Positions 7,436 to 41,339 of a DNA stretch of 64,000 nt are shown piece by piece. A program made the position numbers and the translations under genes. Source of the stretch: Escherichia coli. Lineage in GTDB: Bacteria > Pseudomonadota > Gammaproteobacteria > Enterobacterales > Enterobacteriaceae. Each line of letters starts with the position of its first letter. The stretch's first letter is position 1. Under the pieces are notes generated by a model that was not told the DNA's origin, made no database searches, and saw only the letters and a program-made list of their open reading frames with translations. Where the stretch lies: assembly GCF_013315695.1 (NCBI RefSeq), contig NZ_CP054353.1, one strand, 5' to 3'.

Positions 7436-8287
<852 letters not shown>

Positions 8288-8363
8288 GGTATGTCAGGTC
8301 TGCCACAGGGCAGACCAACGTTTGGCGCTGCCCTTTTTAATCAAACAATAAAAGGACAGCGCA

Positions 8364-9134
8364 ATGACAACACAATCCCACCATGACCACGTAGAAAAGC
8401 AGTTTAGCTCGCAGGCCAGTGAGTATTTAACCAGTACCGTACATGCATCCGGGCGAGATTTACAGCGCCTGGCGGTGCGTCTGGCTGATTATCCTGATGC
8501 AAGTGTACTTGATATGGGCTGCGGAGCAGGGCATGCCAGCTTTGTCGCTGCGCAGAACGTGAGCGCGGTGGTGGCGTATGACTTATCTGCCCAAATGCTG
8601 GATGTCGTGGCACAAGCTGCCGAAGCCCGGCAACTGAAAAATATCACCACCCGCCAGGGTTATGCCGAAAGTCTGCCATTTGCCGATAACGCATTTGATA
8701 TTGTTATCAGCCGTTATTCTGCCCATCACTGGCATGATGTTGGTGCAGCACTGCGTGAAGTGAATCGGGTATTGGAACCCGGCGGTAGGCTGATTGTGAT
8801 GGACGTAATGTCTCCGGGTCATCCAGTGCGCGACATCTGGTTACAGACGGTAGAAGCATTACGCGATACCTCTCACGTACGAAACTACGCCAGCGGTGAG
8901 TGGTTGAAGTTAATCAATGAAGCCAATCTGATAGTTGATAATTTAATTACAGATAAGTTACCGCTGGAATTTTCTTCATGGGTAGCGAGAATGCGTACGC
9001 CAGAAGCGTTAGTAGACGCTATTCGCATTTACCAACAGAGCGCATCGACAGAGGTGAAAACGTATTTTGCCTTGCAGAATGATGGCTCTTTCACCAGTGA
9101 TATCATCATGCTAGAAGCACATAAAGCGGCATAA
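8364..9134 (+). CDS. yafE: SAM-dependent methyltransferase (UbiE/COQ5-like)
   Basis: 256 aa; SAM-binding motif LDMGCGAGH; SD AAAGGA upstream of ATG 8364. Confidence 0.85.
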   Translation: MTTQSHHDHVEKQFSSQASEYLTSTVHASGRDLQRLAVRLADYPDASVLDMGCGAGHASFVAAQNVSAVVAYDLSAQMLDVVAQAAEARQLKNITTRQGYAESLPFADNAFDIVISRYSAHHWHDVGAALREVNRVLEPGGRLIVMDVMSPGHPVRDIWLQTVEALRDTSHVRNYASGEWLKLINEANLIVDNLITDKLPLEFSSWVARMRTPEALVDAIRIYQQSASTEVKTYFALQNDGSFTSDIIMLEAHKAA

Positions 9135-9136
9135 AT

Positions 9137-9170
9137 AAAAAAGGCACCGGGGGAATCGGTGCCTTTTTTA
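9137..9170. terminator. Bidirectional rho-independent terminator between yafE and mltD
   Basis: AAAAAAGGCACCG-ggggaat-CGGTGCCTTTTTT, A-tract/T-tract flanked hairpin. Confidence 0.65.
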
Positions 9171-9182
9171 TTATCTGGTTTG

Positions 9183-10541
9183 TCAGGAGTCTGGCATGCT
9201 GTTGTTTTTCACAAACAACGTCAGCTTATCGCCTGGTTGCAGATTCGCAGTATCGCTGTTCCAGCGCATTACATCTTTGATGTTCACGCCGTGGCGTTTA
9301 GCAATGCTTGAAAGCGAATCGCCTTTGCGCACACGATACGTAATGCTATCGCTGTTGTTTGCCAGTCGCTGTGCGCTACTGCCTGCACCAATCGTCAAAC
9401 TTTGGCCTGGCTTCAGCTTAGATCCGCGCAGTTTGTTCCACTGCTGCAAATCTTTGGTGCTTACGCCGAGACGTGAAGCGATACTTGAAAGCGTGTCGCC
9501 AGAGCGTACGGTGTAAACACGGCTGTTAAGCGGCGTATTGTCAGCAACCAGCGTCGACTGTACAGCAGCAATTTCGCCTGAAGCCAGAGATTCACGCAGT
9601 TGATCTGCATGCTTCTTTGGCACCATCACGTACTGCGGACCACTCGCGCCCAGCGTGGAGCCTTTTACGCCTGCGTTGAATGTCTTCAGCTTGCTGACGG
9701 AAATCCCCGCCATATCTGCAACCTTTGCCATTTCAACCGGGCTGCTCAGGTGCACACGCGCCAGAGCACGGCTTTCATCGGTCGTTGGCAGACGTACGCC
9801 ATAACGCTTGCTGTTTTTGAGAATATCACTCAATGCCAGCATCTTAGGCACGTACTGCTTCGTTTCCTGCGGCAACGGTAACGACCAGAAGTCCGTGGAT
9901 TTCCCTCGCGCTTTGTTCGTTTTAATTGCCTTCATGACTCGACCTTCGCCGCTGTTATAAGCAGCTACGGTCAGAAGCCAGTCGCCGTCAAACATCTTGT
10001 TCAGACGCTGCATCATGTTCAGCGCGGCAGTTGTTGAAGCAACAACATCGCGACGCGCGTCATAATTGCGGGTCTGTTTCAAACCATAATTGCGCCCCGT
10101 GCTCGGAATGATCTGCCAGATGCCCGCGGCATTGGCGCCAGACGTTGCGTGAGGATCAAAAGCGCTCTCCACTATGGGTAGTAGTACCAGTTCCATAGGC
10201 ATGTTACGTTTTTTAACTTGCCCGGCTATCCAGTACATATACGGCTCTGCCCGTAAAGTTACATCGTGGAGATAGCTCTTATTGCGTAAATATTTCTGTT
10301 TCTGTTCGCGAATCCGGTCGTTTTCCGGAATTCCCATCTTTAGCTCGTCGCCAATGAAAGCCCACAAGTCACCATCTGGCGCGATAGACGTCCCATCGTC
10401 CATCCATCGAGCCTGACTTGTAAACTTTGCTGCTTCCCCTTGACCAGCTGCAGAAAGGCTCTGTGCGTGCTGTTGAACGTTGCCGGTGCTCTGGCAACCC
10501 ACGAGCAGGACAGAGGCGAGTAATATCGCTTTTGCCTTCAT
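9183..10541 (-). CDS. mltD: Membrane-bound lytic murein transglycosylase D (lipoprotein with LysM repeats)
   Basis: 452 aa; lipoprotein signal LLVGCQS; SLT domain; C-terminal repeated LysM motifs (YTVRSGDTLSSIASRLGV / YRVRKGDSLSSIAKRHGV). Confidence 0.92.
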   Translation of the reverse strand: MKAKAILLASVLLVGCQSTGNVQQHAQSLSAAGQGEAAKFTSQARWMDDGTSIAPDGDLWAFIGDELKMGIPENDRIREQKQKYLRNKSYLHDVTLRAEPYMYWIAGQVKKRNMPMELVLLPIVESAFDPHATSGANAAGIWQIIPSTGRNYGLKQTRNYDARRDVVASTTAALNMMQRLNKMFDGDWLLTVAAYNSGEGRVMKAIKTNKARGKSTDFWSLPLPQETKQYVPKMLALSDILKNSKRYGVRLPTTDESRALARVHLSSPVEMAKVADMAGISVSKLKTFNAGVKGSTLGASGPQYVMVPKKHADQLRESLASGEIAAVQSTLVADNTPLNSRVYTVRSGDTLSSIASRLGVSTKDLQQWNKLRGSKLKPGQSLTIGAGSSAQRLANNSDSITYRVRKGDSLSSIAKRHGVNIKDVMRWNSDTANLQPGDKLTLFVKNNSMPDS

Positions 10542-10612
10542 GTGTGTGTCAATAGTTGCTTAAAAGACGACCGATCATAACGGCGAACGGAGCCGATGAC
10601 AAGAAAGTTTTA

Positions 10613-11371
<759 letters not shown>

Positions 11372-11401
11372 TTACCTCTCAGTGTGAAACGGAAGGTTGT
11401 G

Positions 11402-12124
11402 ATGAAACCGGCAAGAGTCCCTCAAACTGTCGTGGCTCCTGATCGCTGGGGCGATTTGCCCTGGGGAGAGCTTTATCGCAAGGCGCTGGAGCGCCAGCTC
11501 AACCCGTGGTTCACTAAAATGTATGGTTTTCATCTGCTTAAGATTGGCAATTTAAGCGCAGAAATCAATTGCGAAGCGAGCGCGGTTTCTCATCAAGTGA
11601 ATGTTTCTGCGCAAGGACTGCCCGTCCAGGTGCAGGCGGACCCACTTCATCTTCCTTTTGCCGATAAATCCGTTGATGTTTGTCTACTGGCACATACATT
11701 GCCGTGGTGCACCGATCCGCATCGTTTATTGCGTGAAGCCGATCGGGTATTGATTGATGATGGCTGGCTGGTGATTAGTGGCTTCAATCCCATCAGTTTA
11801 ATGGGATTACGCAAACTTGTGCCGGTATTGCGCAAAACCTCGCCCTATAACAGCCGGATGTTTACTCTGATGCGGCAGCTGGACTGGCTCTCTTTGTTGA
11901 ATTTTGAAGTGCTACACGCCAGCCGTTTCCACGTTCTCCCGTGGAACAAACACGGTGGAAAACTATTGAATGCGCATATTCCTGCGCTTGGTTGCTTACA
12001 ACTTATTGTCGCCCGGAAACGGACTATTCCTTTAACGCTAAATCCGATGAAACAGAGTAAAAACAAGCCACGAATTCGCCAGGCGGTTGGAGCCACCCGG
12101 CAATGTCGTAAACCACAGGCTTAA
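11402..12124 (+). CDS. yafS: SAM-dependent methyltransferase
   Basis: ORF track start 11384 is GTG; ATG at 11402 preceded by SD GGAAGG gives the 240 aa form MKPARVPQ... Confidence 0.83.
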
Positions 12125-35523: not shown

Positions 35524-35928
35524 ATGAAAACGGTCATCACCTTCGGCACCTTCGATGTGTTTCATGTCGGTCATCTGCGCCTTTTACAACGCGCCCGCAC
35601 GCTGGGCGAACGGCTGCTGGTCGGCGTATCGTCCGACGCCTTAAATATCGCCAAAAAGGGCAGAGCACCGGTTTACCCTCAGGATGACCGCATGTCGATC
35701 ATCGCCGGGCTGGCGTGCGTGGATGGCGTATTTCTGGAGGAATCGCTGGAGCAGAAAGCGGAGTATCTGCGGGGGTACCGTGCGGATATTTTAGTGATGG
35801 GCGATGACTGGGCAGGAAAGTTTGACAGCTTCGCGTATATTTGTGAGGTAGTGTATTTCCCCCGCACGCCGTCGGTGTCGACGACGGGGATTATTGAGGT
35901 GATTAGGGGTAAATCAGCCACCTACTGA
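35524..35928 (+). CDS. Glycerol-3-phosphate cytidylyltransferase (TagD-like, makes CDP-glycerol)
   Basis: 134 aa MKTVITFGTFDVFHVGHLRLLQRA... with HxGH motif and ...VVYFPRTPSVSTTGIIEVI; start codon 2 nt after lfiJ stop with SD GGAG. Confidence 0.85.
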   Translation: MKTVITFGTFDVFHVGHLRLLQRARTLGERLLVGVSSDALNIAKKGRAPVYPQDDRMSIIAGLACVDGVFLEESLEQKAEYLRGYRADILVMGDDWAGKFDSFAYICEVVYFPRTPSVSTTGIIEVIRGKSATY

Positions 35929-35976: not shown

Positions 35977-36079
35977 ATGTTTAAAAAATCGCGTTTTTTC
36001 GACATATCCCCAAAACATGTCGATGGCATAAACGTATTCCAACGACATGTTTAAAAATCGCATTTTATCGACATATCCC
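35977..36079. repeat. Two copies of a ~34-bp imperfect direct repeat plus a 10-bp inverted repeat
   Basis: ATGTTTAAAAAATCGCGTTTTTTCGACATATCCC (35977..36010) and ATGTTTAAAAATCGCATTTTATCGACATATCCC (36047..36079); inverted arms AAACATGTCG 36013..36022 / CGACATGTTT 36043..36052. Confidence 0.7.
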
Positions 36080-38521
36080 TGACGATTCCTTGCCCGCCAA
36101 CGCCTCCACAATCACCATCGTCGCCCGTTCTCCCGCCTTGCCATCCATAAACGCATCGCAATAGTGATGACGAATCTTCGTAAGCCGCGCCTGCACCGCC
36201 CCCCAGTCAAACGCCTCTGACAACAAGTAACGCAACTCTGCCATATCATGAGCCACCGGCAATATTTCGCGGATTTGCTGATCGGCGCTCTCCGGCGTGG
36301 AGTAGCTTTTCTCGCCGTCGAGCAATTCACTCATGCCCGGAAAGTCGAGCAGGATCACCCGCTTATCAACGTGGATAGCATCGAAAATAAAGCCGCTGTT
36401 ATCGGTCAGCACGTAATCGGCCTTTGCCAGCAGCGCCAGCGTGTGACGGGCGGAGTCGGTGCGCTGTTTTAAATGCCTGCGAGCCAGGGCCAGCGATGCA
36501 GCTTCTTCCGGGCGCGAGCAGGTGCCGTGGTGCAGTTTGCAAATCAGGTTCACATCATCGCTTAAGCGCCCCAATTTTTCTGCCCAGTGGGGCAGGGAGC
36601 TTAATGCGCCAAACGTTGGGGCGTAGAGTACGGTGGGTTTACGCTCGTCCAGTTTGATATTTTCCGGCAACGCGCGGTCGAACGTGGCGTTATGCCAGGC
36701 GTCGAAGCGCGGGTTGCCGACCACTATTGCGTTGCTGAGGTGCGCCAGCGCCTGCTGGCTGTAGTGGCTGTAACACAAAATGCGCTGATAAAAACGGTTC
36801 CAGTCGGCGTGGTTCCACGTTTCTTTGGCTAAGCCGTACATGGCGCGAATGTTCAGGGGGGAAAGGCCACTGAGCGCAGGCGTGTGATAGGGGCTGACCA
36901 GGCATTTTACTCGCTGACCGTGTGCCTGCATTTCTGACAGACGCATACCTTTAAGCTGCGGATCGTCGATGTTTTTCAGTGTTTCCAGCATCTCATCCAG
37001 AAACGGTTTAAACACGCGGTCATTGATCACCAGTGTGCAGCTCTGCCCCTGCGCCTGCAGGGCGGTGATGATTGGGCGGTAGAGCGCGTAGTGGAATGAG
37101 GTTTCCATAAAAAAGCCGATGGTATCGGCGATAGGTAATGTAGATGGCTTGGTGGCTACGGGTAACTTATTGAAGTAGTGGTTAATGTTATCAGTCGCTT
37201 TTTTCTCGATATCACTAAAGCCCGGTCGCTGATAACAAAGGCTCGGGTAACAGGCCAGCCATTTGTCGGTGCGCAGCAGCGGCTGCCAGCCGTCTTCCAG
37301 CGAATGCTCATCGTTGTTCATCTGCTGCGCCAGCTGCGGGTAGTAGCGGCGGTTCACCAGATAAGCGCACACTTTGCGGCAGTCCCGCGCGTGCACCAGC
37401 CCAGGCAAACTTTTTAGCATCGTTCCCTGCGAAATTTCGCCGCCGAGGATCATCACCTGCCAGGGAATTTTCGCCAGGCTCGCCAGCAGCGCGTTCAGCA
37501 CCTGAATATGTTTCTCCTGTTTGAGAATAACCGCGTCATCTTCCAGCAGCAGGTAGTTTTGCCAGCCGCGTTGTTGCGCCAGACGCAGTGCCTGCAAGTG
37601 TGATTGCTGGCGGCCCCGTTGACCGTTTTCATTTTCACTGGCGGCAAGGCGGGTGATCTTCTCAGGAGGAATATGCAGCAATGTGAGTTCTTCACGGATC
37701 TGCTGTAAGCGATCCGGGCGTTTATCCAGATTCAGCAGAACGATCTGATCGATCGCCTGATGATGAGTGGCGTTATGCAGACTCAGATAAGCATTGCGGA
37801 GCAGCGGATCGCGGACGATATCCGTAAGCGTCGCGTTTACTGGCGTGCTGGCCCCGAGAATAAAGTCTTTATCAAAGGTGTTGTGGCTGTGCGAGATACA
37901 CAAAATCGTGCGCTCGCCGGGCAGTTGTAGCGGGTTAACGCTGAAATTGTCGGTGAAACTTTTCTCTTCGCCTAAATTGCAATCGTCATCGTAGCGGTGC
38001 TTTTTCAGGTAGTTACGGTGATAGCAAAAGGTGCCGTTGAGGATGTTATGCGGGCCGAAGCTGCGGCTTTGAAAGATGCGATTGATGTGGCTGTACCAGA
38101 TGGGGATCTGGTCGGAACCGGAGATGAGCGCCCGGTTTTTTTGCATCATAGCGATGGTGTAAGAGATTTTATCTGCCGGGTAGTAGTCGTCATCGTCCAT
38201 GCAGAGGATGTATTCGCCGCGCGCCAGTTCGTTGAGCATATTGCGTTTTTTGCCCAGCGGCAGTTTTTCCGGGTGATGGATGTAGCGGATGTTGAAGGCT
38301 TCCGGTGTGCCATTGGTCAGGCGGTCGATGATGTGTTGATGGCTTTGCGGGGAATCGTCGAGGATGATGAGTTCGCGGCGGTCTGCCGGGTAGTCCTGAT
38401 AGCGGTACATATAAAGCAGGTACGGCAGGAATGCGCTGCGGTTCCAGGTTGGCGTGACGACGCTGACGGACGGTTTTTCGCGCTGGGTGGCGAGTGTTTT
38501 GATAATGGTTGGTGTTGGCAT
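36065..38521 (-). CDS. Large multidomain glycosyltransferase: N-terminal GT2 domain, central GT25-like domain, C-terminal CDP-glycerol glycerophosphotransferase (TagB/TagF-like) domain
   Basis: GT2: VSVVTPTWNR...ILDDSP...CMDDDDYY; GT25-like: IVLLNLDKRPDRLQQI...YLLLEDDAVIL; TagF-like: VLYAPTFGALSS...VLTDNSGFIFDA; start set to ATG 38521 (MPTPTII), track start 38593 is GTG inside a repeat. Confidence 0.75.
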   Translation of the reverse strand: MPTPTIIKTLATQREKPSVSVVTPTWNRSAFLPYLLYMYRYQDYPADRRELIILDDSPQSHQHIIDRLTNGTPEAFNIRYIHHPEKLPLGKKRNMLNELARGEYILCMDDDDYYPADKISYTIAMMQKNRALISGSDQIPIWYSHINRIFQSRSFGPHNILNGTFCYHRNYLKKHRYDDDCNLGEEKSFTDNFSVNPLQLPGERTILCISHSHNTFDKDFILGASTPVNATLTDIVRDPLLRNAYLSLHNATHHQAIDQIVLLNLDKRPDRLQQIREELTLLHIPPEKITRLAASENENGQRGRQQSHLQALRLAQQRGWQNYLLLEDDAVILKQEKHIQVLNALLASLAKIPWQVMILGGEISQGTMLKSLPGLVHARDCRKVCAYLVNRRYYPQLAQQMNNDEHSLEDGWQPLLRTDKWLACYPSLCYQRPGFSDIEKKATDNINHYFNKLPVATKPSTLPIADTIGFFMETSFHYALYRPIITALQAQGQSCTLVINDRVFKPFLDEMLETLKNIDDPQLKGMRLSEMQAHGQRVKCLVSPYHTPALSGLSPLNIRAMYGLAKETWNHADWNRFYQRILCYSHYSQQALAHLSNAIVVGNPRFDAWHNATFDRALPENIKLDERKPTVLYAPTFGALSSLPHWAEKLGRLSDDVNLICKLHHGTCSRPEEAASLALARRHLKQRTDSARHTLALLAKADYVLTDNSGFIFDAIHVDKRVILLDFPGMSELLDGEKSYSTPESADQQIREILPVAHDMAELRYLLSEAFDWGAVQARLTKIRHHYCDAFMDGKAGERATMVIVEALAGKESSGICR

Positions 38522-38570
38522 GGTGTTTGGGTGAGTTAATGGGTGAATGTGATGAATGTGCGTGCTGATG

Positions 38571-38684
38571 CCCTCACCCCGACCCTCTCCCACAGGGAGA
38601 GGGAGAAAACCAGCGCCGATTTTAACACCGTGCTCGATCGGTTCCCTCGCCCCTTTGGGGAGAGGGTTAGGGGGAGGGGAAAAG
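38571..38684. repeat. GC-rich composite palindromic intergenic repeat (CCCTCTCCC/GGGAGAGGG and GGTGAGGG-type motifs)
   Basis: Perfect hairpin CCCTCTCCC-aca-GGGAGAGGG at 38583..38603 and CCCTCGCCCCTTTGGGGAGAGGGTTAGGGGGAGGGG at 38644..38679; related copy at 18402..18436. Confidence 0.6.
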
Positions 38685-38699
38685 CGCGCACAGAGCGAC

Positions 38700-39629
38700 T
38701 CACGTCAGCAGCGAAAATGCTGACAGCAGCGGCTCTGCCGCACATAACGACTGGAGCTGCTGGCGAATCGCCGCAGCATTTTCACTCTCTCGCCAGCGTT
38801 CAAACACCGCAAAAAGGGCGAAAATATCCTCCTTCCGCAGCGGTGAACCATCCAGCGTCCATAAACTGATTAACGTGCGGATGAGATAAAAATCACACAC
38901 CAGCGGGCAATAATCTGCTCCGTCTGCCTGCCCAATCACGTCGTGATAAACGCGGTAAATCAGCCAGTTGCGCATCATCCACGGCGCGGCGGCAAAATGC
39001 TGTTGCCAGGTGGTTTGCCACTGCACCTTAAGCTGCTGTTGCAACAAAGCTTCGCTGTTGGCGTCATGCAACGTCAGCAAAGTCACCTGCAACGGTAGCG
39101 AGGCTTTGCGCGGGCTTTCCGGCAAAATCGACCAGTCAAACGCAAAACTCCCGAGCAGCGTCACCAGTTGGCGCGCCAGTTGTGGCACGGGTGGGAGTTG
39201 GGCGAACTGTGCCTGTAGCGTGCCTTTTTGTGCATGATCCCCCAGCGCCTGTGGCAGCGTCGTCAAGCGGGCAAGAATATCTCCGTCTCTGCCCGGCATT
39301 TTACTGGCGCGGGAGAGCAAAATCCCGACGGCATACAGGGAAAGCTCCGGGGTTAAATCGGGGAGCGTAAGGGTGCTCAAAATGGCCTGGTTTACTATCG
39401 CATCGCGCGCGGATAGCTCGGCGGCATTGTCTTCCACAGGGCGGTAGGTGAGCTGTAAATCAAAGGCCCTGGCATCGTTGAGCACCGCTTTGCAACTTTC
39501 AATATCGGTCAATGCCAGGCTCTGGCGAATCTCATTCTTCCAGACCTTGCGGACGTACAAAGGCGAATCGGGATATTGCGTCATAAAATTGCGCACGTAT
39601 TCCGGTTCGTAACATTCAATAAAACTCAT
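38700..39629 (-). CDS. Hypothetical protein, Flag-2 internal, function unknown
   Basis: 309 aa from ATG 39629 (MSFIECYEPEYVRNF...); no motif I can recognise; track ORF starts at upstream TTG 39668. Confidence 0.6.
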   Translation of the reverse strand: MSFIECYEPEYVRNFMTQYPDSPLYVRKVWKNEIRQSLALTDIESCKAVLNDARAFDLQLTYRPVEDNAAELSARDAIVNQAILSTLTLPDLTPELSLYAVGILLSRASKMPGRDGDILARLTTLPQALGDHAQKGTLQAQFAQLPPVPQLARQLVTLLGSFAFDWSILPESPRKASLPLQVTLLTLHDANSEALLQQQLKVQWQTTWQQHFAAAPWMMRNWLIYRVYHDVIGQADGADYCPLVCDFYLIRTLISLWTLDGSPLRKEDIFALFAVFERWRESENAAAIRQQLQSLCAAEPLLSAFSLLT

Positions 39630-39756
39630 AGGTGGCTTCCAGTCTTTATTACTTTGCGGAATGTGCAATAAGCGTGCCGGGAATTTTTGTAATCAAAAAC
39701 AAGGGATTGAGAATCAGGCGGAAAATCCGTTTCCGCGATGGGGGAAGGAATTGTCG

Positions 39757-40185
39757 TTATTCCTGGTACAGAAAATCTGTTTCGCCGCCTAAAAAAAACT
39801 GAATAAATTCATACTGGCGAATCAACAGCTCGCCGTTTTTGTCGTTGTAGGCTTTGCAGCGTTCCGCTTTTTGCTCAAGGCGTTGCCACAACTGTTGTGC
39901 TGCTGCTTTTTGCACAGCCGGAAGCCAGGCAAAAACCTGCGCCAGACCGTCACGATTTACACTGACATTAAGCATTTTCAGCAGGCTGTGCCGCTGATGG
40001 CTATGCCCATGCAACTGTTCATAGTGCTGCGTTATCTCGTCGTTTACCGCCAGCAGATCTTCGCTGGCGCGGCGAATCATGCAGATCCGCTGACGCTGGA
40101 GAAGTTCGCGCAGGGAATCGTACAGTGCGTCGTCGTCACGAATGCCCTGCAACAACGCCTTCACCTGTTGTAACCGGATACTCAC
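39757..40185 (-). CDS. lfgN: Flag-2 export chaperone, FlgN homologue
   Basis: 142 aa; GTG start with SD AAGAGG overlapping the lfgM stop; position downstream of flgM homologue. Confidence 0.78.
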   Translation of the reverse strand: MSIRLQQVKALLQGIRDDDALYDSLRELLQRQRICMIRRASEDLLAVNDEITQHYEQLHGHSHQRHSLLKMLNVSVNRDGLAQVFAWLPAVQKAAAQQLWQRLEQKAERCKAYNDKNGELLIRQYEFIQFFLGGETDFLYQE

Positions 40186-40197
40186 TTCATCGGCCTC

Positions 40198-40476
40198 TTA
40201 GTTCTGGAAAAAACTCAGCATGTCGCTGGCTAACTGTTCGGTGTCCACTTGCAGGCTGCCGGACGCCAGCATCGCCTGCATTTGCGCCACTTTATCGCTG
40301 TCGATATCGCTCTCTTGCTGGTCGTTCAGCGTTTGCTGGGCAGACTGCAATCCCGCCTGGGTAATGTCGTCTGCGCTCTGCGTAGTGGTGGTGGTCGCCG
40401 TGCTTTTGCGTGGCTGGCTGGAGCCAGCCGTTGTGGCTGTCGGGCGATTGCCTGGCATAGTCGGGGTGATTTTCAT
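40198..40476 (-). CDS. lfgM: Flag-2 anti-sigma-28 factor, FlgM homologue
   Basis: 92 aa; Thr/Ser-rich N-terminus and conserved C-terminal region. Confidence 0.8.
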   Translation of the reverse strand: MKITPTMPGNRPTATTAGSSQPRKSTATTTTTQSADDITQAGLQSAQQTLNDQQESDIDSDKVAQMQAMLASGSLQVDTEQLASDMLSFFQN

Positions 40477-41323: not shown

Positions 41324-41339
41324 TGGCACGGCAATTGCT
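41324..41339 (+). promoter_or_regulatory. Sigma-54 promoter upstream of lfgB operon
   Basis: TGGCACG-gcaa-TTGCT, exact match to -24/-12 consensus TGGCACG-N4-TTGCW; 37 nt upstream of lfgB ATG. Confidence 0.75.

What the first reader, a model, noticed from the sequence alone, without database searches (positions are those of the whole stretch)
38700..39629. Orphan 309-aa protein embedded between the glycosylation module and lfgN
No recognisable catalytic or flagellar motif, yet it sits inside an otherwise functionally coherent locus, between the glycosyltransferase and the FlgN/FlgM chaperone genes. It may be a substrate-targeting factor or the methylase-like accessory reported for this locus, which I cannot confirm from sequence alone.
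Basis: inference. Interest (0 to 1): 0.6.

Follow-up and report, generated by a model that had tools for sequence, protein, structure and literature searches.

The report
Lateral-flagellar FliB relic lacking its iron-sulfur module
The 309-aa gene is lafV of the E. coli lateral-flagella (Flag-2) locus: a conserved relative of the flagellin methylase FliB that has lost the whole iron-sulfur module FliB needs for catalysis and is always paired with a glycosyltransferase, so its usual label 'lysine-N-methylase' is probably wrong.

Summary
The ORF is real (window 38700-39629, minus strand, 309 aa) and is not an orphan. It is lafV of the E. coli Flag-2 locus. It occurs in 1,278 of 5,426 complete E. 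coli genomes and in Citrobacter, Pseudocitrobacter, Phytobacter, Leminorella and others.

It is homologous to the flagellin lysine-N-methylase FliB, but only to the first ~15 residues and the C-terminal domain (Pfam FliB_C). The ~90-residue Cys-rich block, which carries the CX4CX3CC [4Fe-4S] site that published work shows is essential for FliB methylation, is cleanly excised. LafV keeps 0 of FliB's 8 invariant cysteines and scores 39 bits against a curated cutoff of 85.

The gene is under purifying selection (dN/dS ~0.15, no internal stops in 29 loci). It folds confidently (pLDDT 91) into a fold with no solved relative. A conserved sigma-54-type promoter lies 34 nt upstream of its start codon.

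In every locus examined it is adjacent to a GT2 glycosyltransferase, even where the gene order is reversed. Canonical FliB instead sits next to the flagellin gene.

Best reading: a non-methylating FliB derivative that serves the lateral-flagellin glycosylation machinery, possibly as its flagellin-recognition subunit. The loss of the module is shown; the positive function is inferred. This is a new variant of a known kind, of moderate interest.

The parts
38700..39629 (-). lafV coding sequence, 309 aa. It is a FliB-derived protein made of FliB residues ~1-15 joined to the FliB_C domain, with the Cys-rich [4Fe-4S] module excised.
   Evidence: ORF and sequence. RefSeq CDS WP_000008087.1. NCBIfam NF038110 scores 39.2 bits against a cutoff of 85, aligned to profile positions 106-367 only. 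Alignment with full-length FliB. AF2 pLDDT 91.3. AFDB matches. dN/dS 0.146.
39664..39679 (-). Sigma-54-type promoter core (cGGCAC-N5-TTGCA; GG-N10-GC) ending 34 nt upstream of the lafV start codon. It would drive lafV and probably the downstream glycosyltransferase.
   Evidence: It is one of only two exact GGCAC-N5-TTGCW sites in 64 kb (0.53 expected by chance). The other lies upstream of flgB. The element is conserved at 33-96 nt upstream of lafV in 20 of 23 type-A loci of several genera; 15 of 23 score >=9/11, against 3% of background windows. Function is inferred, not shown.
39636..39640 (-). Shine-Dalgarno-like GGAAG, 6 nt upstream of the ATG.
   Evidence: Read directly from the sequence.
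36065..38521 (-). Three-part glycosyltransferase, 818 aa: GT2 domain, a GT25-like middle part, and a CDP-glycerol glycerophosphotransferase-like C-terminal part. It lies immediately downstream of lafV on the same strand and is the proposed functional partner.
   Evidence: Pfam GT2 residues 20-134 (E 1.4e-17) and Glyphos_transf residues 597-723 (E 2.3e-5). NCBIfam GT2-type hits. The GT25-like label for the middle part comes from a weak Pfam hit on a separate ORF at this position in L041, from homology of the type-B GT2 C-terminal part to separate ORFs in L033/L034 and from sequence resemblance judged by eye; it was not scored on this protein. The orthologous GT2 follows lafV in all type-A loci that have downstream DNA. 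lafV and this gene co-occur in 1,277 of 1,278 E. coli genomes that carry lafV.
35524..35928 (+). TagD-like cytidylyltransferase, 134 aa. It is the likely supplier of the CDP-activated donor (CDP-glycerol-like) for the glycerophosphotransferase-like domain.
   Evidence: TIGR01518 glycerol-3-phosphate cytidylyltransferase scores 113.8 bits, below the equivalog cutoff of 165.4. The generic cytidyltransferase domain passes its threshold.
39757..40185 (-). flgN (lfgN), the export chaperone gene directly upstream of lafV on the same strand.
   Evidence: RefSeq annotation. Pfam FlgN on orthologues.
40198..40476 (-). flgM (lfgM), the anti-sigma-28 factor gene.
   Evidence: TIGR03824 scores 51.4 bits against a cutoff of 40.75.
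53351..54265 (+). lafA, the lateral flagellin. It is the presumed substrate of the modification machinery and lies ~14 kb from lafV.
   Evidence: Orthologous CDS is annotated 'lateral flagellin LafA' in L036, L038 and L039. It is 99.0-99.3% identical to the window ORF.

Best explanation
The gene is lafV, a derivative of the flagellin lysine-N-methylase FliB in which the ~90-residue cysteine-rich module has been excised. That module binds the catalytic [4Fe-4S] cluster. What remains is the small N-terminal beta-sheet and the all-helical FliB_C domain.

SHOWN: the module and all 8 invariant FliB cysteines are absent. The remaining fold is intact. The gene is kept by purifying selection in many genera. 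It has its own conserved sigma-54-type promoter motif. It is always next to a GT2-family glycosyltransferase, whereas full-length FliB sits next to the flagellin gene.

INFERRED: LafV no longer methylates lysines. Instead it works as a non-catalytic subunit of the lateral-flagellin modification machinery (GT2 + GT25-like + TagF-like transferase, fed by the TagD-like cytidylyltransferase). It most plausibly keeps FliB's ability to engage unexported flagellin in the cytoplasm and presents LafA to the transferase. It would be made under LafK/sigma-54 control together with the hook-basal-body genes, that is, before flagellin.

My confidence differs by step. That it is a FliB derivative lacking the Fe-S module: ~0.95. 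That it is not a FliB-type methylase: ~0.75. That it functions with the glycosyltransferase: ~0.6. That it specifically acts as a flagellin-recognition adaptor: ~0.35.
For: (1) Domain loss. NCBIfam FliB aligns only profile positions 106-367 and scores 39.2 bits against a cutoff of 85. All five short forms tested fail the cutoff (39-77 bits) and all six long forms tested pass (157-286 bits).

(2) The alignments show residues 1-15 retained, then a clean gap from C17 to about C103, resuming at 'YP(R/D)'. In a 92-sequence alignment the window protein keeps 0 of 8 invariant FliB cysteines. It also lacks the conserved W30, D35, Y106-P107-R108 and H373.

(3) Among library representatives, 0 of 38 short forms carry the Cys motif, against 55 of 60 long forms.

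(4) A C17A/C22A/C26A/C27A FliB mutant loses the cluster and all methylation activity (PMC8598068).

(5) The gene is not decaying. dN/dS is 0.146, comparable to flgN at 0.140 and flgM at 0.189, and 0 of 29 loci have internal stops. AF2 gives pLDDT 91 and pTM 0.90. TM-score is 0.94-0.97 to short homologues and ~0.8 to the FliB C-terminal part.

(6) Glycosyltransferase linkage. In all type-A loci with downstream DNA the order is flgN-lafV-GT2 on one strand. In 4 of 4 type-B loci the order is reversed, fliJ-GT2-lafV; the reading frames overlap by 4-14 nt in L010 and L011 and are 4-35 nt apart in L042 and L041. In the literature, LafV is present in 342 of 592 Flag-2 loci and glycosyltransferases in 341 of 592; LafV6 occurs in 219 strains and GT2-1 in 222. 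In contrast, canonical FliB lies in fliC-fliB-fliA with no glycosyltransferase nearby.

(7) A Cys-less FliB_C is fused to a PM0188 sialyltransferase domain in P0217; this is weak evidence.

(8) A conserved sigma-54-type site lies upstream of lafV.

(9) Precedent: the substrate specificity of the flagellin O-glycosyltransferase FlmG is conferred by a dedicated flagellin-binding domain (PMC7591256).
Against: There is no direct evidence that LafV binds LafA or the glycosyltransferase.

An AF2 run on a GT2-linker-LafV fusion with 14 genome-paired sequences gave pTM 0.54. The GT2 half was poorly folded, so that test is uninformative.

It is not known which part of FliB binds flagellin; the FliB paper does not map it. 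The idea that this activity is retained is therefore an assumption.

LafA is 99% conserved among E. coli strains while LafV differs by up to 12%, so no covariation signal is available.

The most conserved FliB_C motif (N-Y-x-x-Y-R-x-Y-H-D) is retained. That could mean a residual enzymatic or ligand-binding site.

Gene adjacency inside a 'variable region' that collects flagellin-modification genes may reflect common inheritance rather than physical cooperation.

The natural fusion P0217 rests on one 2.2-kb, 3x-coverage metagenome contig and could be a frameshift artefact.
Confidence: 0.5

Rival explanations
1. LafV is, as annotated, a flagellin lysine-N-methylase. It would methylate LafA either by a cluster-independent mechanism located in the FliB_C domain, or together with a separately encoded Fe-S or cysteine-cluster protein acting in trans.
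For: There is homology to FliB. The most conserved FliB_C motif NYxxYRxYHD is retained. RefSeq and UniProt name the protein 'lysine-N-methylase'. The Flag-2 literature predicts methylation. Type-B short forms keep a CxCxxC motif plus one further Cys, which could still bind a metal. The SAM-binding site of FliB has not been mapped.
Against: The quadruple Cys mutant of FliB is inactive and has no cluster. The window protein has 0 of 8 conserved cysteines, and one close relative (P0096) has only 2 Cys in total. All short forms fail the curated equivalog cutoff. No Fe-S module is encoded anywhere in the 64-kb window: the Cys motifs occur only in spurious antisense ORFs, and an HMM of the module finds nothing. 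The fold is not Rossmann, SET or radical-SAM. The gene context has switched from the flagellin gene to a glycosyltransferase.
Confidence: 0.17
2. LafV has a function unrelated to the neighbouring glycosyltransferase. Examples: a FlgN-like or FliS-like export or assembly accessory factor, a regulator of lateral flagellin, or an enzyme with a new activity using the retained NYxxYRxYHD pocket.
For: In type-A loci it sits directly after flgM-flgN. Its evolutionary rate is chaperone-like: dN/dS 0.146, against 0.140 for flgN. A conserved polar motif and family-specific invariant residues (W30, E33, R35, N80, Q81, R174, K175, E277, W279, R280) point to a specific binding or active site. The fold has no solved relative, so its activity cannot be read from structure.
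Against: The pairing with GT2 survives inversion of the gene order and relocation into the fliE-J operon, whereas adjacency to flgN does not. LafV and glycosyltransferase counts across 592 Flag-2 loci are nearly identical. Flag-2 loci without the variable region lack lafV yet keep the conserved flagellar gene complement, which argues against a core assembly role.
Confidence: 0.23
3. LafV is a non-functional relic: a decaying remnant of a FliB gene whose reading frame happens to be intact.
For: The catalytic module is lost. lafV has the highest dN of any gene in the locus among E. coli strains (0.034-0.064). Many E. coli Flag-2 loci are degenerate; in strain G4/9, fliF, fliH, flgK and the glycosyltransferase are pseudogenes.
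Against: dN/dS is ~0.15-0.18, not ~1. None of 29 loci has an internal stop, and length stays at 306-315 aa down to 40% identity across genera. About 50 residues are invariant. The AF2 model is confident. The promoter motif is conserved.
Confidence: 0.05

Closest known systems
FliB, flagellin lysine-N-methylase of Salmonella enterica (NCBIfam NF038110; [4Fe-4S]/SAM enzyme, PMC8598068)
   Same: LafV is homologous over the first ~15 residues and the whole C-terminal domain (Pfam PF27117 FliB_C). Foldseek TMq is ~0.8 to full-length FliB models. The NYxxYRxYHD motif is shared. Both are encoded in flagellar gene clusters.
   Different: LafV lacks the ~90-residue module with CX4CX3CC and all 8 invariant cysteines. 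It scores 39 bits against a cutoff of 85. It is ~310 aa rather than ~400 aa. It neighbours a GT2 glycosyltransferase rather than the flagellin gene. It belongs to the lateral (Flag-2) system, not the primary flagellar system.
LafV orthogroups LafV1-LafV10 of enterobacterial Flag-2 variable region 1 (De Maayer et al. 2020, PMC6993521)
   Same: This is the same gene. It lies between lfiJ and lfgN, is ~300-318 aa, and is described as a FliB-like predicted methylase.
   Different: There is no difference in identity. The difference is in interpretation: that paper, which predates the FliB Fe-S biochemistry, predicts methylation. No paper found in the held library notes that LafV lacks the cluster module.
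Type-B short FliB_C proteins of other lateral-flagellar loci (for example Rouxiella, Buttiauxella, Kluyvera, Pantoea and Burkholderia mayonis models in AFDB)
   Same: They have the same short architecture and the same locus slot, are paired with GT2, and give TM 0.82-0.90. They group with the E. coli type against long FliB in 34/40 (p-distance) and 21/40 (corrected) bootstraps.
   Different: They keep a mini CxCxxC motif plus the Cys that aligns with FliB C125, so they may still bind a metal. The E. coli type has lost these too. The gene order is GT2 then lafV inside the fliE-J operon, rather than flgN-lafV-GT2.
FlmG of Caulobacter crescentus, a flagellin O-glycosyltransferase with a separate flagellin-binding domain (PMC7591256)
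   Same: This is a functional analogy only. There, substrate specificity of a cytoplasmic flagellin glycosyltransferase is supplied by a dedicated flagellin-binding module made before flagellin export.
   Different: There is no sequence or fold relationship. In FlmG the binding module is fused to the enzyme, whereas LafV is a separate polypeptide. LafV's binding to flagellin is not demonstrated.

Membership tests
FliB flagellin lysine-N-methylase (NCBIfam NF038110 equivalog) | Whole-protein score at or above the curated cutoff (85 bits), covering the full profile | tested here: not met
   The score is 39.2 bits, and only profile positions 106-367 of 373 are aligned. Other short forms score 45-77 bits; long forms score 157-286 bits.
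FliB flagellin lysine-N-methylase (NCBIfam NF038110 equivalog) | N-terminal CX4CX3CC motif that ligates the [4Fe-4S] cluster and is essential for activity (PMC8598068) | tested here: not met
   The motif is absent: the alignment shows a clean gap. 0 of 38 short representatives carry it, against 55 of 60 long ones.
FliB flagellin lysine-N-methylase (NCBIfam NF038110 equivalog) | Eight highly conserved cysteines (C17, C22, C26, C27, C79, C88, C103, C125) | tested here: not met
   0 of 8 are retained. T17 and D42 occupy the C17 and C125 columns, and the other six fall inside the deletion.
FliB flagellin lysine-N-methylase (NCBIfam NF038110 equivalog) | FliB C-terminal domain (Pfam PF27117 FliB_C) and its fold | tested here: met
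   PF27117 is precomputed on homologues of 83-100% identity and on orthologues in their loci. Foldseek TMq is ~0.8 to FliB models. The local Pfam-A copy lacks this family.
FliB flagellin lysine-N-methylase (NCBIfam NF038110 equivalog) | Gene adjacent to the flagellin gene it modifies | tested here: not met
   lafA is ~14 kb away, and lafV's conserved neighbour is GT2. The control long FliB lies in fliC-fliB-fliA.
FliB flagellin lysine-N-methylase (NCBIfam NF038110 equivalog) | SAM-dependent epsilon-N-methylation of flagellin lysines | not testable with these tools
   This needs biochemistry or mass spectrometry of LafA.
LafV of Flag-2 variable region 1 (PMC6993521) | Located between lfiJ (fliJ) and lfgN (flgN) in a Flag-2 locus; ~300-318 aa; weak FliB similarity | tested here: met
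   Position. Size and FliB similarity. The window is 100% identical to the E. coli MSB1_4I Flag-2 region.
Radical-SAM enzymes | CX3CX2C cluster motif and a partial or full TIM-barrel fold | tested here: not met
   No such motif is present. The model is a 4-strand sheet plus a helical bundle. There is no Pfam hit.
Class I (Rossmann) or SET-domain methyltransferases | Rossmann-like alpha/beta fold with a GxGxG SAM motif, or a SET fold | tested here: not met
Flagellin-binding specificity modules of flagellin glycosyltransferases (FlmG type) | Demonstrated direct binding to flagellin; fused to or complexed with the glycosyltransferase | tested here: inconclusive
   Only gene linkage to GT2 was established. 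The AF2 fusion test was uninformative. There is no sequence relationship to FlmG.

The most novel reading that the evidence does not exclude
The short LafV proteins are pseudoenzymes. An ancestral [4Fe-4S] flagellin methylase lost its catalytic module, probably once, with stepwise loss of the remaining cysteines. Its flagellin-engaging scaffold was then co-opted as the substrate-recognition subunit of a glycosyl/glycerophosphotransferase that decorates lateral flagellin. That would be a switch of one post-translational modification system into the targeting device of another. Under this reading, 'lysine-N-methylase' annotations on thousands of enterobacterial genomes are wrong.
Probability: 0.3. 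Interest if true: 0.6.

Novelty: new variant of a known kind. Interest (0 to 1): 0.45.

Why it matters
LafV is annotated as a lysine-N-methylase in RefSeq and UniProt, and the Flag-2 literature cites it as evidence that lateral flagellins are methylated. The FliB Fe-S cluster was shown to be essential only in 2021, after that literature was written. As far as the held library shows, nobody has since noticed that every Flag-2 LafV lacks the cluster module.

Correcting this changes what modification one expects on lateral flagellin: a glycan or glycerophosphate rather than methyl-lysine. It also gives a natural dissection of FliB into a catalytic module and a scaffold domain, which helps define what FliB_C does. 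Finally, it yields a simple, testable hypothesis for how a flagellin glycosyltransferase with no obvious substrate-binding domain finds its substrate.

The matter is specialised. Flag-2 is often degenerate in E. coli, so the broader impact is moderate.

Tried and rejected
(1) Pfam-A scan of the protein returned nothing. The local library lacks PF27117, which appears only in precomputed annotations.

(3) Pseudogene hypothesis: rejected on dN/dS and intact frames.

(4) Split-enzyme hypothesis within the locus: no Fe-S module is encoded anywhere in the window. The rest of the genome was not searched.

(5) LafV-LafA covariation in E. coli: uninformative, because LafA is 99% conserved. In L037 lafA lay outside the fetched stretch.

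(6) AF2 of a GT2-linker-LafV fusion with a genome-paired alignment gave pTM 0.54 with the GT2 half unfolded. This is inconclusive.

(7) Natural fusion P0217 (FliB_C + PM0188 sialyltransferase): kept only as weak support, because it sits on a single 2.2-kb, 3x-coverage contig. P0236 turned out to be an ordinary long FliB with an N-terminal extension.

(8) A first NJ bootstrap gave 50/50 support, but the distance matrix contained NaN values. I discarded it and redid the analysis, obtaining 34/40 and 21/40.

(9) The sigma-70 promoter scan and the sigma-28 consensus search around lafV were negative, and no convincing terminator lies between flgN and lafV.

It was redone with A1, so only the E. coli/Citrobacter-type subfamily was sampled genome-wide.

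(11) The original Flag-2 paper (Ren et al. 2005) is not held.

(12) Rfam on the flanking spacers returned only sub-threshold hairpin noise on the palindromic repeat.
Full report
**1. The observation.** Window 38700-39629 on the minus strand holds an ORF of 309 codons from ATG to TGA. An in-frame TTG 13 codons upstream is possible. However, the N-terminus MSFIECYEPEYVR is conserved from residue 1 in all relatives, a GGAAG box precedes the ATG, and RefSeq annotates the same 930-nt CDS.

The window is an Escherichia coli Flag-2 (lateral flagella) locus. The 5.2-kb segment around the ORF is 100% identical to strain MSB1_4I.
- fliJ, then a TagD-like cytidylyltransferase (35524-35928, +);
- an 818-aa glycosyltransferase (36065-38521, -) with Pfam GT2 and CDP-glycerol glycerophosphotransferase domains;
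- the ORF itself;
- flgN and flgM.

**2. It is not an orphan.** A word-indexed search found 95 relatives of almost constant length (306-315 aa). They come from Escherichia species, Pseudocitrobacter, Citrobacter (including C. rodentium), Phytobacter and others, down to 40% identity. All carry the precomputed Pfam domain PF27117, named FliB_C. The gene is present in 1,278 of 5,426 complete E. coli genomes. In 1,277 of them the whole tagD-GT-ORF-flgN-flgM segment is present. A scan of one genome per species found it in 24 species-level genomes.

The literature calls it LafV. De Maayer et al. list LafV1-LafV10 in variable region 1 of Flag-2, between lfiJ and lfgN. [quoted passage not shown] RefSeq names the protein either 'hypothetical protein' or 'lysine-N-methylase'.

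**3. What it is: FliB minus its catalytic module.** The NCBIfam equivalog model for flagellin lysine-N-methylase FliB matches the protein at E = 5.7e-10. The score is only 39.2 bits (curated cutoff 85), and only profile positions 106-367 of 373 align.

An exhaustive profile search of 1.84 billion representatives returned 158 relatives in two length classes:
- about 297-327 aa, matching from residue 1;
- about 390-437 aa, matching only from about residue 105-120.

The long ones pass the FliB cutoff (157-286 bits). All short ones tested fail (39-77 bits).

An explicit alignment shows that the short proteins are not 5'-truncated. They keep FliB residues ~1-15 (I-x-x-Y-E-P-E-F-V-R-x-F). They then skip precisely the block from C17 to about C103 and resume at the 'YP(R/D)...W..E.R.SL.L' strand.

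In a 92-sequence alignment, FliB has eight invariant cysteines (C17, C22, C26, C27, C79, C88, C103, C125), in agreement with the published count. The window protein retains none of them: T17 and D42 occupy two of the columns, and six fall inside the deletion. Conserved W30, D35, Y106-P107-R108 and H373 are also gone. Across representatives of at least 280 aa, 0 of 38 short proteins carry a CX2-5CX2-4CC motif, against 55 of 60 long ones.

Wang et al. showed that FliB holds one [4Fe-4S] cluster ligated by CX4CX3CC. They also showed that the C17A/C22A/C26A/C27A mutant has no cluster and no methylation activity (PMC8598068).

No Fe-S module is encoded separately anywhere in the 64-kb window.

**4. 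Structure.** With an 18-sequence alignment, AF2 gives a confident model (pLDDT 91.3, pTM 0.90). It has a small four-stranded sheet, formed by the N-terminal strand and the strands that follow the deletion point, plus an all-helical domain. The Fe-S module of FliB therefore looks like an insertion in a loop of this sheet, and its removal leaves the fold intact (inference).

Foldseek against AFDB50 finds short-family members at TM 0.94-0.97. More distant short forms score 0.82-0.90. Full-length FliB models give TMq ~0.8 and TMt ~0.64, as expected when the target carries one extra module.

**5. Two grades of reduction.** Among short forms, the E. coli/Citrobacter type ('type A') has no cysteine motif at all; one member has only two Cys in the whole protein. 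Many others ('type B', from other lateral-flagellar loci) keep a mini C-x-C-x-x-C motif at residues ~20-30, plus the Cys that aligns with FliB C125. They may still bind a metal.

On the shared domain, short forms separate from long forms in 34/40 (p-distance) and 21/40 (corrected-distance) NJ bootstraps. A single origin is plausible but not firmly established. 'Type A' as defined by absence of Cys is not a clean clade. An earlier run with NaN distances was discarded.

**6. It is maintained by selection.** Across 29 loci there are no internal stops. Median pairwise dN/dS values (Nei-Gojobori, pairs with 0.05 < dS < 1.5):

| Gene | Median dN/dS |
|---|---|
| lafV | 0.146 |
| flgN | 0.140 |
| flgM | 0.189 |
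| fliJ | 0.116 |
| TagD-like gene | 0.107 |
| GT2 domain | 0.100 |

Among E. coli allele classes lafV has the highest dN in the locus (0.034-0.064, against at most 0.012 for the rod, hook and ring genes), with dN/dS ~0.17. LafA is 99.0-99.3% identical. LafV is therefore a fast-evolving but constrained accessory protein, not a pseudogene.

**7. Context is the strongest functional clue.** In every type-A locus with downstream sequence, lafV is followed within ~40-260 bp, on the same strand, by the same orthologous GT2 domain. This covers the window, six further E. coli strains (L002, L003, L036-L039), E. fergusonii, 24 species-level genomes, C. rodentium and metagenomic contigs. The GT2 domain is either fused into an ~820-850-aa three-part enzyme or encoded as a separate 289-aa protein followed by a 526-aa protein. 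The single exception (L007) has a weakly GT2-like gene downstream and another GT2 gene upstream.

In all four type-B loci examined, the gene is in the same fliJ-flgN slot but the order is reversed: fliJ, GT2 (461-502 aa), lafV. The stop and start overlap by 14 and 4 nt in L010 and L011, and the genes are 4 and 35 nt apart in L042 and L041. The GT2-LafV pairing therefore survives rearrangement, whereas adjacency to flgN does not.

The published counts agree: LafV in 342 of 592 loci against glycosyltransferases in 341 of 592, and LafV6 in 219 strains against GT2-1 in 222.

As a control, a canonical 401-aa FliB lies in fliD<-, fliC->, fliB->, fliA with no glycosyltransferase. The long form closest to LafV lies in a non-flagellar context.

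One representative (P0217) is a fusion of a Cys-less FliB_C with a PM0188-type sialyltransferase domain. It comes from a single low-coverage 2.2-kb contig, so I count it only as weak support.

**8. Expression signal.** The 127-bp flgN-lafV spacer has no sigma-70-like or sigma-28 consensus and no convincing terminator. It does contain cGGCAC-N5-TTGCA (39664-39679, minus), which matches the sigma-54 -24/-12 core (a consensus I recall from established knowledge) and ends 34 nt before the ATG.

Only two exact GGCAC-N5-TTGCW sites exist in the 64-kb window (0.53 expected by chance). The other is a perfect TGGCAC-N5-TTGCT immediately upstream of flgB, where a sigma-54/LafK-dependent class-2 promoter is expected for lateral systems (expectation from established knowledge of Vibrio and Aeromonas lateral flagella).

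A GG-N10-GC site of this type lies 33-96 nt upstream of lafV in 20 of 23 type-A loci, including genera where LafV is 40% identical. Fifteen of the 23 score at least 9/11, against 3% of background windows. It is absent from type-B loci, where lafV is internal to an operon.

I infer that lafV, and probably the glycosyltransferase, is transcribed under LafK/sigma-54 with the hook-basal-body genes, that is, before flagellin. This is a motif-level inference, not a demonstration.

**9. Mechanism.**

Shown: LafV is a FliB homologue without the Fe-S module. It is conserved and well folded, tied to GT2 genes, and carries a conserved sigma-54-type motif.

Inferred: it cannot carry out the FliB reaction. 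Instead it acts as a non-catalytic partner of the lateral-flagellin modification enzymes. Those are the GT2, GT25-like and TagF-like domains, with the TagD-like enzyme supplying a CDP-activated donor. LafV most plausibly retains the ability to engage cytoplasmic flagellin and presents LafA to the transferase.

The precedent is FlmG, in which a dedicated flagellin-binding domain confers specificity on a flagellin O-glycosyltransferase (PMC7591256).

The weak points are as follows:
- No interaction is shown.
- The part of FliB that binds flagellin is unmapped.
- My AF2 fusion test was uninformative.
- The retained NYxxYRxYHD motif could mark a residual catalytic or ligand site.

**10. Rivals.**
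- (a) It is still a methylase, cluster-independent or complemented in trans: probability ~0.17.
- (b) It has a function independent of the glycosyltransferase (chaperone, regulator or a new enzyme): ~0.23.
- (c) It is an inert relic: ~0.05.

**11. Comparison and novelty.** LafV is a member of the published LafV group and of Pfam FliB_C. It fails four defining features of the FliB equivalog: the score threshold, the CX4CX3CC motif, the eight cysteines and flagellin-gene adjacency. I therefore do not file it as a FliB methylase. I found no paper in the held library that notes the missing module. I class it as a new variant of a known kind: a probable pseudoenzyme derivative of FliB, re-associated with glycosylation.

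**12. Verdict.** The finding is real and more interesting than a plain hypothetical protein, but it is not categorically new. Interest: 0.45.

Noticed in passing
window 38557-38692 (lafV-glycosyltransferase spacer): A GC-rich imperfect palindrome (51-nt arms, 73% complementary) fills the 178-bp spacer. It accounts for the thousands of extra megablast places when the region is searched (25,897 places in 4,816 E. coli genomes), so it is a high-copy intergenic repeat. From memory it resembles the BoxC-type elements of E. coli. It is absent from this spacer in ST131 strain JJ2434 (46-bp gap) and in Citrobacter (~40-97 bp gaps).
   Followed up: partly
L008 (E. fergusonii) 8001-8927, compared with window 38700-39629: lafV of E. 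fergusonii is only 64% identical to the window allele (dS 2.35, dN 0.26), although the flanking flgN, flgM and GT2 domain are 95-100% identical (dS 0.13-0.20). This looks like a gene-sized allelic replacement confined to lafV.
   Followed up: partly
window 41324-41339 (+) and 54424-54439 (+): A perfect sigma-54 core (TGGCACGGCAATTGCT) lies upstream of flgB. A one-mismatch site (TGGCACGCCTTTTGCC) lies ~30 nt upstream of lafB/fliD. Both are candidate LafK-dependent promoters of the lateral system.
   Followed up: partly
window 36065-38521 compared with L002, L003, L036: The glycosyltransferase is mosaic among E. coli strains. Its middle part is 100% (L003) or 97.9% (L036) identical in nucleotide sequence to the window allele, while its C-terminal part is 95.0% and 90.8%. 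In L002 the N-terminal part is 99.1% and the middle part 91.2%. This suggests recombination breakpoints between the three enzyme domains.
   Followed up: no
L004 (C. rodentium) 8994-11552: The enzyme that is one ~820-850-aa protein in E. coli and in Citrobacter sp. 18056 is called as two genes (289 aa and 526 aa) in C. rodentium. The split falls at the start of the GT25-like part. It could be a disruption or a real two-subunit form.
   Followed up: no
L039 (E. coli G4/9) and L037 (E. coli O166:H15): Flag-2 of G4/9 is decaying: fliF, fliH, flgK and the glycosyltransferase are annotated pseudogenes, while lafV is intact. In O166:H15 a type II restriction endonuclease/cytosine methyltransferase pair is inserted between flgM and flgA, and a RelE/ParE toxin module lies before lafZ.
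   Followed up: no
window 35524-35928: The TagD-like cytidylyltransferase scores 113.8 bits on the glycerol-3-phosphate cytidylyltransferase model, below the equivalog cutoff of 165.4. RefSeq variously calls it 'FAD synthase family protein'. Its true nucleotide-activated product is therefore uncertain.
   Followed up: no
literature: There is a name clash. In the Vibrio parahaemolyticus and c-di-GMP papers returned by the 'lafV' search, the name appears to refer to a different protein; from memory it is a c-di-GMP phosphodiesterase, but I did not open those papers. Text searches for 'LafV' mix the two.
   Followed up: no
L009 8001-9218 (P0122): The full-length FliB homologue most similar to the short family lies in a non-flagellar neighbourhood, between an efp/radical-SAM (epmB-like) pair and groES. 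Not all FliB-family proteins need act on flagellin.
   Followed up: no
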